From: Lytechinus pictus
Lineage: Eukaryota
Direction: 5' to 3'
NCBI RefSeq assembly: GCF_037042905.1
Contig: NC_087247.1
Span: forward strand, 11,408,001-11,472,000
Length of the DNA: 64,000 nucleotides
Part shown: positions 36,001 to 39,000 of the stretch, piece by piece
Numbering within the stretch: position 1 is the stretch's first letter
Layout of the letters: every line of letters begins with the position of its first letter
Position numbers: made by a program

Positions 36001-39000
36001 ATTTTGAATTTTCAGAAAGAATTGATCAGTGAAAAGTGATATAATGGTCAGGACATTTTCGTAAGATGAGAATTTTGGAATGATAATTCAATGTCCGGTG
36101 TGTTGGTTCAGTTGGTAGAGCGTCTGTCATACAACCAGGAGCTTGGGAGGTCAAACCCCAGCCGCGTCAGACCAAAAGACGTTAAAAGATGGGAGTTACT
36201 GCTACCCTGTTTAGCATTCAACGATTAAAGGGATAGATCCTTGTCGATCTGGTGCTCCACAGCAGCTGTCGGGCCCACGATCAATTGGGCAAAACACATT
36301 TTTATTTCATGTCTATTTCGAAAAATAAAAAATGGATTTTTATGTCATTTATATTACTGAACCCTTAAGCTTTAGACAGGTATTAATGTTATCTCACTCA
36401 TGTCGTTATACTGTTGCAAGATGTGACATTGATAAGTTGTGATCTTTGATATGATTTTCAGGAATGTCCCGAACAAGTTGAGAAGTCAGTTTGTCGATGA
36501 GAGTACCCAGAGGAAGGAGAGGCTCGCCAGCTTGAAGGAAACCATCCGTACCAGTGGCTGTGAAGTCTTTGACGGGTAAGAACACTTGTAGGAATTGATT
36601 TGATGGACAGGAGTATTCCAAACAATTTGAAAAATTAGTTTGTTTTCTGTCAATGTAGCCATGATTTCTTTCTATTTTCTGTTCAGTAACACTTGCCATA
36701 ATGGATTGATATCTCTCTATTTTCAGTCTAGTTATCCATACTATAATGGTGTTTATTTCTTAACTCTCTTCTGTCCAGATTAACCCATGCCATAAATGTT
36801 TTGATATCTTACTCTTTTCTGTCCAGTTACCCATGCCATTTTGGCGGAGTGGTAGGCGGTAAGCCCGTTGTCGTGAACCTGGAGGAGTTTGGCCGCCGTG
36901 TCATCAACAATATCTGGAACTACATCAAGCATGCATATCCAGAAGATGTAAGCTTATTATTTGCATATTTCTGAGCTACTATATTTCCATTTATATGTTG
37001 ATATTGCCATATGCATATGCATGAATAATGACTATTCATAAATTTAGATTCACATTTATGTGGTCCATTTATTGAAATGCACAATTGATTATTTTTATGC
37101 AATGTTATGCATGATAATTGTTTTTTCTTTAATTTAGACAGTGTATGCCTGAATTTTTTTAGCTGAGTAAGATGTAAGCATATTGATATTTGTGACAGTG
37201 ATGTAGATTGTTACCACAGAGAGATCTTTGCCCTGAAATGAAATCAATCCTGACATTCACTGAATAAGTTCATGGCAAATGAAAAAAAAAATGTGTATAA
37301 CATTCCAAACTTATTGAAGTCTGAATTATGTAATATTTCAGTTGCTTGATTCTTGAACTCAGACAAAATTCTCATCGCTGGTAGTTTCGTTCTCATTTTT
37401 CCATTTCAATTGTAGGATTGGTTTAATAAACGTTCTTGTCCCAGGGCATTGGTTTGAAACTAGAAACAATTACCATTTCAAGAAATGATAATTTATACAA
37501 GTTCCATGTTTTGTTGATATTTTTTTTTAAGGGTGAGATCCTTGATGAAGTAGTCCACGAAAGAGCACAGCATGACATGTTCCTCCAGTCACAGCTAGCA
37601 ACCTTTACCGGTAGAAAGAACCAGGTCAAGCAGTGTTTGGATATCATCAAGAAACCTGAGACAGGGTTGCTGATGGTTGCAGGCAAGCAGGGGTGCGGCA
37701 AGACGGCTTTACTGGTAAGATATGATAGAAATAATTGGAGGGGTGAGGGGGGGGGGGGTTTAGATAGCTAGGGACCTTCACTGGTAGGAAGAACCAGGTC
37801 AATCAGTGTTTGGATATCATCAAGACACCTGAGACAGGGATGCTATTGGTTACAGGCAAGCAGGGGTGCGGCAAGACGGCTTTACTGGTAAGATATGATA
37901 AAAAAAGATAGGAGGGGTGAGGGGGGGGGGGTTGAGATAGCAAGCGACCGTCACCGGTAGAAAGAACCAGGTCAAGCAGTGTTTCGATGTCATCAAGAAA
38001 CCTGAGACAGGGTTGCTGATGGTTGCAGGCAAGCAGGGGTGCGGCAAGACGGCTTTACTGGTAAGATATGATAAGAGAGATGGGGGGGGGGGGTGAAGGG
38101 GGCAGGGTGGTTGAGATAGCTAGCGACCTTCACTGGTAGGAAGAACCAGTTCAATCAGTGCTTGGATGTTGTCAAAAAGCACAGACAGGGATGCTATTGG
38201 TTACAGGCAAGCAGGGGTGCTCCAAGACGGCTTTACTGGTAAGATGTGATAAGAGAGATGGGAGGGGTGAGGAGAGAGGGGGCAGTGAGATAGCTAGCGA
38301 CCTTTACTGGTAGGAAGAATCAGTTCAAACAGTATTTGGATGTTGTCAAGAGACCTTAGACAGGGACGCTGATGGTTACAGGCAAGCAGGGGTGCAGCAA
38401 GACGGCTTAACTGGTAAGATGTGATAAGGGAGATGGGAGGGGTGAAGGAGGGAGGGGGCAGTTAGATAGCTAGCGACCTTTACTGGTAGGTAGAACCAGT
38501 TCAAACAGTGCTTGGATGTTGTCAAGAAACCTGAGACAGGGATGCTATTGGTTACAGGCAAGCAGGGGTGCGGCAAGACAGCATTAGTTGTAAGATATGG
38601 TTAAAGGGTCAGAGTGATGCTAGCAAAGTGAAACTTGGAATTCATTCCCTACATGTATAACCTCAATTTCGTTTGATAACAGATTTAGGCACAATCTGAA
38701 GCTGTATTTGATCAAACGTAACTCTCGTTGAATTATAAATGATTTTTGTCTTCTTTCTACTCTCAGTCCCCCCCTCTGCATTTCATTCTCTCCTACCCTT
38801 TTCATGTATGTTTGTTTGATCTGGGGTTTGTCTTGGTGCAAGATGCAATTCATTTATTTGAAGAAAACTAATTTAGTTGTAATTCCCAGATAGTTGTGAA
38901 TGATACAAGTGACAGATAAGGTGATAAATCAAACCTATACTCTTAGATATTGGTGTACATGTAGCTGTTGGCTATCCGTTGTTGAACAAGAGTTGAAATT

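What the first reader, a model, noticed from the sequence alone, without database searches (positions are those of the whole stretch)
37595..38600. Six-copy array of the TEP1 NACHT Walker-A half-exon, each copy framed by AG...GT and separated by G-run spacers
Seen: the last 120 nt of exon 19 (LATFTGRKNQ..GKQGCGKTALL) plus its gtaaga donor recur five more times. Each extra copy is preceded by 'gatag', so each is a formal AG..GT cassette in phase 0. Copies 2 (37768-37887) and 3 (37941-38060) are open and keep the P-loop. Copy 4 has a 1-nt deletion, and copies 5 and 6 have stops. Diagnostic bases alternate (exon and copy 3 are type A; copies 2, 4 and 6 are type B; copy 5 is a hybrid), suggesting dimer-level duplication or conversion. 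The ~50-nt spacers are G-runs with no pyrimidine tract. Inference: this is a snapshot of exon birth or a gene-conversion reservoir for the NTPase motif. Alternatively it is a bank of decoy donors that produce premature stops, since read-through hits a stop at ~37770.
Basis: partly seen in the sequence, partly recalled or inferred. Interest (0 to 1): 0.65.

Follow-up and report, generated by a model that had tools for sequence, protein, structure and literature searches.

The report
Tandem repeat straddling a TEP1 exon edge
A sea-urchin TEP1 gene carries a six-copy tandem repeat that began inside an exon and runs into the next intron, so the intron holds decaying copies of the ATP-binding-loop coding piece and its splice donor; it looks like an ordinary young minisatellite, not a new exon.

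Summary
Tandem Repeats Finder reports a 173-nt unit, 5.8 copies, 86% matches, at 37593-38599. Each unit is the last 120 nt of coding exon 19, a gtaaga donor and a 53-59-nt G-rich spacer.

The gene is the TEP1 orthologue of the sea urchin Lytechinus pictus, not human. Two public gene models and the orthologues carry the segment once, with the junction 37714 to 39229.

The array is flanked by an 8-nt direct repeat, GCTAGCAA, in the exon and in the intron after copy 6. This fits a microhomology-mediated tandem duplication across the exon-intron boundary.

The "AG" before each copy is just the end of a Gln codon inside the unit. The pseudo-acceptors score like random intronic AGs, and the spacers are about five times shorter than the shortest of 33 mapped real introns. 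Cassette use is therefore unlikely.

Four extra donors are identical to the real one. Any use of them would give a premature stop. That decoy reading, and a real exon/copy-3 conversion signal, stay open but need RNA or population data.

The window holds at least six other long-period arrays. Verdict: a new member of a known kind, of low to moderate interest.

The parts
37532..37714 (+). Coding exon 19 of the TEP1-like gene (61 codons, phase 0 at both ends). It encodes GEILDEVV...GKQGCGKTALL, the Walker-A / P-loop start of the STAND (NACHT) NTPase.
   Evidence: tblastn of the public model P0001: residues 1078-1138 at 100% identity. GT/AG boundaries that keep the coding index continuous. AAA_16 and nSTAND1 hits, below the curated cut-offs.
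37593..38626 (+). The whole tandem array: six units of 173-179 nt. It starts 62 nt inside exon 19 and ends in intron 19.
   Evidence: TRF 37593-38599, period 173, 5.8 copies, 86% matches. Six-row alignment, mean column identity 85%. The extension to 38626 comes from aligning the terminal piece to the inner junctions.
37594..37601 (+). Left copy of the 8-nt direct repeat GCTAGCAA (in the exon); inferred duplication breakpoint.
   Evidence: Pattern scan with context.
38619..38626 (+). Right copy of GCTAGCAA (in the intron, just after copy 6); inferred duplication breakpoint and true end of the array.
   Evidence: Pattern scan with context; pairwise alignments of the terminal piece to spacers 1-5.
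37715..37767 (+). Spacer 1 (53 nt): the real donor gtaaga, then a purine-rich stretch with a G12 run. G4-type motif at 37740-37758. The in-frame read-through stop TAG at 37769-37771 lies just beyond it, in copy 2.
37768..37887 (+). Copy 2: open, P-loop kept, 11 of 120 nt different from the exon, donor identical to the real one.
37888..37940 (+). Spacer 2 (53 nt), G11 run, G4-type motif at 37914-37931.
37941..38060 (+). Copy 3: open, P-loop kept, 6 of 120 nt different from the exon, all within its first 49 nt. The last 71 nt plus the first 13 nt of the intron are identical to the exon copy.
38061..38119 (+). Spacer 3 (59 nt), G12 run, G4-type motif at 38082-38107.
38120..38238 (+). Copy 4: 119 nt (1-nt deletion, frame broken), P-loop Gly changed to Ser, donor identical to the real one.
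38239..38293 (+). Spacer 4 (55 nt), G-rich but without a canonical four-tract G4 motif.
38294..38413 (+). Copy 5: two in-frame stops, donor identical to the real one.
38414..38469 (+). Spacer 5 (56 nt), G4-type motif at 38428-38458.
38470..38589 (+). Copy 6: one in-frame stop, weakened donor (GTT|GTAAGA, 5.7 bits against 9.5). It is followed by the un-expanded intron piece 38590-38618, which has no G-run.
39229..39389 (+). Coding exon 20 (ASVVDTLQS...). Its acceptor ttcctcatctAG is the partner of the donor at 37714 in the public models.

Best explanation
The feature is a young intronic minisatellite made by a tandem duplication that straddled the exon 19 / intron 19 boundary of the Lytechinus pictus TEP1 gene.

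Origin. An 8-nt direct repeat (GCTAGCAA) lay once in the exon and once about 150 nt downstream in the intron. I infer that slipped or misaligned repair between the two duplicated the interval. That interval held the last 120 nt of the exon, the donor and the first part of the intron.

Expansion and decay. Unequal exchange then expanded the unit to six copies. The purine-rich spacer grew G-runs, and copies exchanged short conversion tracts. The exon-like parts of copies 2-6 are not under coding constraint and are decaying; three of the five are already broken.

Splicing. Productive splicing uses the first donor (37714|37715) and the acceptor at 39229, so the rest of the array is removed as intron.

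Shown: the anatomy, the flanking repeat, the gene identity, the single-copy state in gene models and orthologues, and the poor quality of the pseudo-acceptors.

Inferred: the duplication mechanism, the order of events, and that the four extra full-strength donors are used little. The extra donors may be held in check because only the first donor has G-runs downstream but none upstream. In the exon-definition model, which I recall, a longer exon would also be disfavoured.
For: (1) Tandem array: TRF period 173, 5.8 copies. No other copy in the window.

(2) GCTAGCAA sits at both ends, 37594 and 38619, and the terminal piece aligns with the inner junctions.

(3) The window's gene is matched at about 100% identity, exon by exon, by P0001, named by NCBI 'telomerase protein component 1-like isoform X2 [Lytechinus pictus]'.
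- P0001 and a second L. pictus model, P0050, read ...GKTALL|ASV(V/M)DTLQS with one P-loop segment.
- 102 of the 103 long proteins with a hit carry the 40-residue segment once. The only one with two is the unrelated multi-STAND protein P0005.

(4) The intron position is old. 35 of 37 short hits read GK[ST]xxxV, which I interpret as read-through of a GT donor at the same codon.

(5) Pseudo-acceptors:
- Pyrimidine fraction 0.10-0.20 against 0.55-0.85 for 33 real acceptors.
- Scores -1.6 to -5.0, at the 25th-52nd percentile of 1751 intronic AGs.
- Spacers 53-59 nt against real introns of 251-4879 nt.

(6) No sign of coding constraint among the copies.
- Variable sites by codon position are 11, 8 and 16.
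- 4 of the 5 codons that differ between the exon and copy 3 change the residue.
- Staying open after 6-13 random substitutions has probability 0.57-0.76, so two open copies are unremarkable.

(7) The S. purpuratus orthologue (..EAV..MVTGKQ) shares V and T with the distal copies, where the present exon has I and A. The copies therefore preserve older states of the exon.

(8) Such arrays are common here. At least six other arrays with a period above 100 nt lie in the same 64 kb, one of them with period 160, 6.1 copies and 85% matches.

(9) The copies differ by 5-17%. That argues against a false duplication made by the assembler.
Against: No transcript data were available, so which donors are used is inferred from gene models, not seen.

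Four extra donors are identical to the real one and score above the gene's average (9.5 against a mean of 7.0 bits). Some use, and hence some cost or regulation, is plausible.

A 48-nt block (the P-loop codons plus the donor) is about three times less diverged among copies than the other 85 nt: 12 of 240 against 65 of 425 differences to the exon copy, Fisher p = 4e-5. Strict neutrality does not predict this. It fits homogenisation by conversion, but also constraint on the donors.

Absence of the array in other urchins is supported only by one unnamed read-through fragment, P0002. No echinoderm DNA could be searched.
Confidence: 0.78

Rival explanations
1. Decoy-donor bank. The extra full-strength donors compete with the real one. 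Any use keeps 173 nt or more of array in the mRNA, meets the stop at 37769-37771 and sends the transcript to nonsense-mediated decay. The array would then lower or tune TEP1 output, and copy number would act as a dial.
For: Donors c2-c5 are identical to the real donor and c6 still scores 5.7 bits. The stop is in frame. The donor-containing block is unusually conserved among copies 1-5: 4 of 48 variable columns against 27 of 85 (p = 0.002).
Against: Both public L. pictus models use only the first donor.

Each downstream donor has a G-run just upstream. In a TP53 minigene study, G-runs between a native donor and a strong downstream cryptic donor enforced the native one (bioRxiv 10.1101/2024.10.07.617118, passages read). 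That is human data, carried over by inference.

Conversion from the selected exon copy explains the conserved block equally well. There are no RNA data.
Confidence: 0.12
2. Exon birth. Copies 2 and 3 are used as new cassette exons, or as alternatives to exon 19 by splicing from exon 18 straight to a copy. All of these are phase 0 and in frame, and would give TEP1 isoforms with a doubled or variant Walker-A segment.
For: Copies 2 and 3 are open, keep GKQGCGKT and are framed by AG...GT in phase 0.
Against: The AG is a copied codon end. The pseudo-acceptors have no pyrimidine tract and score like random AGs, and the 53-59-nt spacers are far below the shortest of the 33 mapped real introns (251 nt).

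Openness is expected by chance, P = 0.57-0.76. 0 of 102 TEP1-like proteins have the segment twice.

Skipping the first 21 codons of exon 19 would remove residues conserved in orthologues. A doubled strand-plus-P-loop would probably not fold as a STAND NTPase (inference).
Confidence: 0.03
3. Gene-conversion reservoir. The intronic copies serve as donors of sequence variants for the Walker-A exon.
For: The exon and copy 3 are identical over 84 nt, while all 6 of their differences lie in the first 49 nt (p = 0.0025). The exon's Ala (GCA), where the S. purpuratus orthologue and copies 2, 4, 5 and 6 have Thr, is shared only with copy 3. An exchange between these two therefore did happen, or copy 3 is a late duplicate of the exon.
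Against: The direction is unknown. Exon-to-copy transfer, or a late duplication, explains the data without any function.

I know of no reason for a vault/telomerase NTPase to diversify its P-loop (my own knowledge). Three of the five possible donors carry stops or a frameshift, so conversion from them would be harmful.
Confidence: 0.04
4. Assembly artefact: a false tandem expansion made by the assembler at poly-G tracts.
For: G11-G12 homopolymers are error-prone. 12 runs of nine or more G or C occur in the window.
Against: The copies differ by 5-17% with copy-specific indels and stops. A false duplication would give near-identical copies. Only the homopolymer lengths are doubtful.
Confidence: 0.03

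Closest known systems
Internal tandem repeats at exon-intron boundaries of human genes in segmental duplications (De Grassi and Ciccarelli 2009, PMC2812944; abstract and passages read)
   Same: A tandem repeat with a long unit overlaps an exon-intron boundary and multiplies splice signals. That paper reports 27 intron modifications and says such repeats can create alternative splicing through novel introns.
   Different: Those cases were defined by transcripts and by variation between paralogues. Here there are no transcript data, the gene is single-copy, and the evidence points to no use of the extra signals.
Introns from tandem arrays carrying repeated splice sites (Zhuo, Madden, Elela, Chabot 2007, PNAS). 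I saw only the title, in two reference lists; the paper is not held, so its content is recalled.
   Same: As I recall it, tandem arrays inside genes repeat a 5' splice site, so several equivalent donors face one acceptor.
   Different: As I recall it, those arrays give alternatively spliced introns seen in cDNA. Here extra-donor use would be out of frame (173 nt is not a multiple of 3) and is unobserved.
[quoted passage not shown] 2010, PMC2891723; abstract and passages read)
   Same: A partial exon duplication places splice signals in tandem. The paper notes that unspliced variants may be removed by nonsense-mediated decay.
   Different: There the duplicated AG|GY inside coding sequence becomes both ends of a new intron. 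Here an existing donor was duplicated together with intron sequence, no new intron is needed, and the copied AG has no acceptor context.
G-runs between a native donor and a downstream cryptic donor, TP53 intron 6 (bioRxiv 10.1101/2024.10.07.617118; abstract and passages read)
   Same: G-runs lie just downstream of the used donor and upstream of a strong alternative donor. In TP53, deleting them moved splicing to the downstream donor.
   Different: That is a human minigene with hnRNP F/H. Whether sea-urchin factors act alike is untested. In the array every donor except the last also has G-runs downstream.
Tandemly duplicated whole exons used as mutually exclusive or cassette exons (recalled general knowledge; no paper read)
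   Same: Tandem copies of coding sequence inside one gene, some with open frames and matching phase.
   Different: Those units are whole exons with their own acceptor, branch site and flanking intron. Here the unit is a partial exon plus 5' intron sequence, with no acceptor context.

Membership tests
TEP1 (telomerase protein component 1 / vault-associated protein) orthologue | N-terminal TROVE domain | tested here: met
   Five exon-level TROVE hits between 17.8 and 24.5 kb, four of them above the 23-bit cut-off. On the public model P0001: 365.9 bits.
TEP1 (telomerase protein component 1 / vault-associated protein) orthologue | Central STAND/NACHT P-loop NTPase | tested here: met
   Exon 19 alone gives AAA_16 (23.3 bits) and nSTAND1 (20.5 bits), both below their cut-offs. 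PF05729 (NACHT) is among the Pfam domains precomputed for P0001. APAF1_C helical domain at 48.6 kb, 26 bits against a cut-off of 22.8. I did not see NACHT in my own scan of P0001, because only the best 25 of 56 families were listed.
TEP1 (telomerase protein component 1 / vault-associated protein) orthologue | C-terminal WD40 propellers of the TEP1 type, and best matches that are named TEP1 | tested here: met
   Beta-prop_TEP1_2nd scores 254.5 bits against a cut-off of 89 on P0001. The nearest relatives are named telomerase protein component 1 in S. purpuratus (89% identity over residues 1040-1460), Diadema, Acanthaster and others.
Minisatellite / internal tandem repeat at an exon-intron boundary | Head-to-tail copies of a unit of tens to hundreds of nt that overlap a mapped exon-intron boundary | tested here: met
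   TRF period 173, 5.8 copies. The array starts at 37593, inside exon 37532-37714.
Minisatellite / internal tandem repeat at an exon-intron boundary | Copy-number variation between individuals | not testable with these tools
   No second L. pictus genome or reads were available.
Tandemly duplicated functional exons (cassette or mutually exclusive) | Each copy has its own usable acceptor (pyrimidine tract, branch site) and an intron long enough to splice | tested here: not met
   Pyrimidine fraction 0.10-0.20 against 0.55-0.85. Scores -1.6 to -5.0 against a real mean of 7.0. Spacers 53-59 nt against at least 251 nt.
Tandemly duplicated functional exons (cassette or mutually exclusive) | Open frame under purifying selection | tested here: inconclusive
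   2 of 5 extra copies are open. Openness is expected by chance at 0.57-0.76. Variable sites by codon position are 11, 8 and 16. There are too few sites for a dN/dS test.
Tandemly duplicated functional exons (cassette or mutually exclusive) | Seen in transcripts or protein models | tested here: not met
   0 of 102 TEP1-like proteins with a hit carry the segment twice, including two L. pictus models. Transcripts themselves could not be examined.
[quoted passage not shown] | The duplicated exonic AG|GT becomes the two ends of a new intron the size of the duplication | tested here: not met
   The duplicated donor is that of a pre-existing, widely conserved intron position (35 of 37 read-through fragments). 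No new intron is implied by the gene models.
G-quadruplex-forming sequence | Four or more G3+ tracts with loops of 1-7 nt on the transcribed strand | tested here: met
   Regex hits in spacers 1, 2, 3 and 5, and none in spacer 4. These are 4 of the 6 plus-strand hits in the window; there are none on the minus strand. Folding in vivo is not testable here.

The most novel reading that the evidence does not exclude
The array is not inert. It would be a natural experiment in which five identical 5' splice sites, each followed by a G-run, compete for one acceptor, and its copy number sets how much TEP1 pre-mRNA is lost to out-of-frame donor choice and decay. The copies also trade short conversion tracts with the Walker-A exon, and the exon's derived Ala codon, shared only with copy 3, may have come from such a tract. 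On this reading, the unusually conserved 48-nt P-loop-plus-donor block in copies 1-5 reflects selection on the donors.
Probability: 0.07. Interest if true: 0.55.

Novelty: new member of a known kind. Interest (0 to 1): 0.22.

Why it matters
As it stands the array is an ordinary product of minisatellite turnover in a repeat-rich sea-urchin gene, and it does not change what is known about TEP1.

It has two modest uses.
- It is an unusually clean example of a tandem duplication caught across an exon-intron boundary, with both breakpoints still marked by an 8-nt direct repeat. Its intronic copies preserve older states of the exon, where the S. purpuratus orthologue agrees with the distal copies against the present exon.
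- It offers a ready-made test of how a spliceosome chooses among identical donors separated by G-runs, if L. pictus RNA data are examined.

Annotators should also know that the open copies 2 and 3 give P-loop hits and could be mistaken for exons.

Tried and rejected
Searches that gave nothing or could not be made
- A word-index search with the exon 19 translation among longer proteins found nothing, because only proteins up to 2000 aa were searched and TEP1 is longer.
Isoform X1 and the source of P0002 therefore stayed unseen.
- Rfam at a permissive E-value over 36500-39800 gave no match.
- The four minus-strand ORFs inside the array have no Pfam match.

Hits set aside
- In one search, P0003 and P0008 matched in 8 stretches each and P0005 in 6. 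They looked at first like proteins with a multiplied segment. On reading them, they are unrelated repeat proteins or a multi-STAND protein.

Ideas rejected
- Dimer-level (346-nt) duplication: TRF reports no 346-nt period, the spacers do not alternate, and only 2 of 12 informative sites alternate strictly.
- An evolved acceptor in front of each copy: the AG belongs to a copied CAG codon.

Literature
- Zhuo et al. 2007 is not held.
- A search for Lytechinus plus TEP1 found 4 papers. In the one I opened (PMC4789581) the only mention of TEP1 is a table row. I found nothing in print on this array with the searches.

Not done
- I built no joined (spliced) model, and so ran no fold of a protein with a doubled segment.
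- No echinoderm genome DNA, reads or transcripts could be searched.
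Full report
**What is there**

Tandem Repeats Finder reports a single array at 37593-38599. It has period 173, 5.8 copies, 86% matches and score 1334.
- Each unit holds the last 120 nt of a coding exon, a gtaaga donor and a G-rich spacer. 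The spacers are 53, 53, 59, 55 and 56 nt.
- Copy 1 (37595-37714) is the real exon end.
- Copies 2 and 3 are open and keep GKQGCGKT.
- Copy 4 is 119 nt and its P-loop reads GCSKT.
- Copy 5 has two stops and copy 6 has one.
- Donors 1-5 are the identical CTG|GTAAGA. Donor 6 is GTT|GTAAGA.
- Reading through the first donor meets TAG at 37769-37771.
- A local blastn of the unit finds no further copy in the window.

**Which gene and which organism**

The window has 37% G+C, a CpG observed/expected ratio of 0.60 and one N run at 48918-49057, which I left alone.

Exon-by-exon Pfam scans of plus-strand open frames gave the following:

| Region | Pfam family |
|---|---|
| 17.8-24.5 kb | TROVE |
| 32.3 kb | DUF5920 |
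| 34.4-35.4 kb | DUF4062 |
| Exon of interest (37.5 kb) | P-loop families AAA_16 and nSTAND1 |
| 48.6 kb | APAF1_C |
| 51-62 kb | WD40 and TEP1 propellers |

An exhaustive HMMER search with the 61-residue exon translation returned 47 proteins. The best is P0001 (2542 aa), 100% identical over the exon. A later search shows that NCBI names it 'telomerase protein component 1-like isoform X2 [Lytechinus pictus]'. It maps onto 15019-62251 of the window at about 100% identity, exon by exon. The exon of interest is its 19th coding segment.

The window is therefore sea urchin, not human. I built no joined spliced model of my own. My searches used single exons or the public protein P0001.

**Single copy in proteins; an old intron position**

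- P0001 and a second L. pictus model, P0050, read ...GKQGCGKTALL|ASV(V/M)DTLQS. Nine of the ten sequences I inspected by eye show a single P-loop segment, including S. purpuratus, Diadema and Acanthaster. The tenth, P0053, did not match my pattern.
- Of 121 long proteins held, 103 match the 40-residue segment. 102 match once. The only one matching twice is the unrelated multi-STAND protein P0005.
- 35 of the 37 short hits read GK[ST]xxxV, a Val codon three residues after the P-loop Ser/Thr. I read this as read-through of a GT donor at the same codon, so the intron position is ancient.

**How the array arose**

The exon has GCTAGCAA at 37594-37601, and the same 8-mer recurs at 38619-38626, just after copy 6. 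The piece between copy 6 and that 8-mer still aligns with the ends of the inner spacers. The array is thus bounded by a short direct repeat, the classic footprint of a microhomology-mediated tandem duplication. This is an inference from anatomy.

The terminal piece has no G-run. The G-runs therefore expanded inside the array, or were added at the first junction. The AG in front of every copy is simply the end of the CAG (Gln) codon at 37592-37594, which lies inside the unit.

**Could the copies be exons?**

I mapped 33 real introns of this gene from P0001, using coordinate arithmetic without joining exons. I then compared them with the pseudo-sites.

| Measure | Real sites in this gene | Sites in the array |
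|---|---|---|
| Intron length | 251-4879 nt | 53-59 nt (spacers) |
| Pyrimidine fraction before the AG | 0.55-0.85 (mean 0.70) | 0.10-0.20 |
| Acceptor score | mean 7.0, lowest -1.4 (leave-one-out) | -1.6 to -5.0 |
| Donor score | mean 7.0 | 9.5 (donors 1-5), 5.7 (donor 6) |

The pseudo-acceptor scores fall at the 25th-52nd percentile of 1751 intronic AGs, whose mean is -1.9. The copies are therefore very unlikely to be spliced in, but they do offer four full-strength extra donors.

**Are the copies under selection?**

- Variable sites fall 11, 8 and 16 on codon positions 1, 2 and 3.
- The exon and copy 3 differ in 5 codons, and 4 of these change the residue.
- Simulated random substitution leaves the frame open with probability 0.76 after 6 changes and 0.57 after 13. 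Two open copies out of five need no explanation.
- Pairwise differences in the exon-like part run from 6 of 120 (copies 1 and 3) to 20 of 120.

**History among the copies**

- Of 12 informative sites, 4 group {1,3}, 3 group {1,2,3} against {4,5,6}, and 2 alternate strictly.
- All 6 differences between copies 1 and 3 lie in the first 49 of 133 aligned nt (p = 0.0025).
- The spacers do not alternate.
- The S. purpuratus orthologue reads EAV...MVTGKQ. It agrees with copies 4-6 (Val) and with copies 2, 4, 5 and 6 (Thr), against the present exon (Ile, Ala). The intronic copies thus preserve older states of the exon.

**One unexplained point**

The 48-nt block made of the P-loop codons and the donor is identical in copies 1-3. 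Over all copies it has 12 of 240 differences to the exon copy, against 65 of 425 in the other 85 nt (Fisher p = 4e-5; the copies are not independent). Homogenisation by conversion from the selected exon fits this. Constraint on the donors fits it as well.

**G-runs**

- Canonical four-tract G4 motifs occur on the transcribed strand in spacers 1, 2, 3 and 5. These are 4 of the 6 such motifs in the window.
- Runs of nine or more G or C occur 12 times in the window, so they are a feature of this genome or assembly.
- In a human TP53 minigene study, G-runs between a native donor and a strong downstream cryptic donor were needed to keep splicing at the native donor (bioRxiv 10.1101/2024.10.07.617118, abstract and passages). 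The same study reports severe mis-splicing when the donor-to-branchpoint distance is under 50 nt.
- By analogy, the first donor is the only one with G-runs downstream and none upstream, and this may favour it. This is inference across phyla.

**Base rate**

TRF over the whole window lists at least six other arrays with a period above 100 nt. One of them, at 25717-26697, has period 160, 6.1 copies and 85% matches. The only unusual thing about the present array is that its left edge fell inside an exon.

**What is known**

- Internal tandem repeats at exon-intron boundaries that alter splicing are described for human genes (PMC2812944, abstract and passages).
- Tandem duplication of proto-splice sites is a described route to novel introns (PMC2891723, abstract and passages).
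- Zhuo et al. 2007 on tandem arrays with repeated splice sites could not be read. I cite it from recall and from two reference lists.
- Searches for Lytechinus with TEP1 found nothing about this array.

**Limits**

- No echinoderm DNA, reads or transcripts could be searched.
P0002 is an 83%-identical fragment that reads 29 codons into its intron without a G-run or a second copy.
- Supplements of papers were not consulted.

**Verdict**

The interpretation as exon birth or as a conversion reservoir is not supported. The decoy-donor idea is formally valid but untested. The feature is a young minisatellite born across an exon-intron boundary: a new member of a known kind, of low to moderate interest.

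Noticed in passing
window 25717-26870; 31278-31863; 22054-22564; 4229-5131 and 44313-45119; 58448-58646: At least six other long-period tandem arrays (periods 110-340 nt) lie in or near the same gene. The arrays at 4229-5131 and 44313-45119 share periods of 163 and 192 nt and may be one repeat family in opposite orientation.
   Followed up: no
window 7663-7731: A 28-nt unit repeated 2.5 times, purine-rich with G9 runs. It resembles the array's spacers (GAGAGATGG...G-run...TGAAGG), so the spacer motif may be a recurrent low-complexity element of this genome.
   Followed up: partly
window, 12 sites (e.g. 29068, 31939, 8584, 20528, 27293, 27680, 63017): Homopolymer runs of 9-12 G or C occur 12 times in 64 kb, 3 of them in the array. 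Their exact lengths may be unreliable in an assembly.
   Followed up: no
window 37680-37727 and the same block in copies 2-5: The 48-nt block of P-loop codons plus donor is identical in copies 1-3 and about three times less diverged than the other 85 nt of the exon-like part. The cause is unresolved: conversion, or constraint on the donors.
   Followed up: partly
window 34479-35351 (exons with DUF4062 hits): The TEP1 gene carries DUF4062. The abstract of a 2026 preprint (10.64898/2026.05.01.722283, seen in the search listing) calls DUF4062 a family of TIR-like NADases, with a link to the RNA vault.
   Followed up: no
P0044 (401 aa, unnamed source): A distant STAND homologue has an in-frame tandem duplication of about 50 residues that repeats its P-loop segment. 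Two P-loops lie about 53 residues apart, and Pfam places NACHT on the second. This would be an independent case of the same segment being duplicated, here inside coding sequence.
   Followed up: partly
window 48918-49057: An N run lies in the intron between the exons ending near 48870 and starting near 49276. That intron was left out of the splice-site statistics and the N run was not filled.
   Followed up: no
window 58652-58808: An (ATC)n microsatellite of about 53 copies lies just upstream of the exon at 58849-58956.
   Followed up: no
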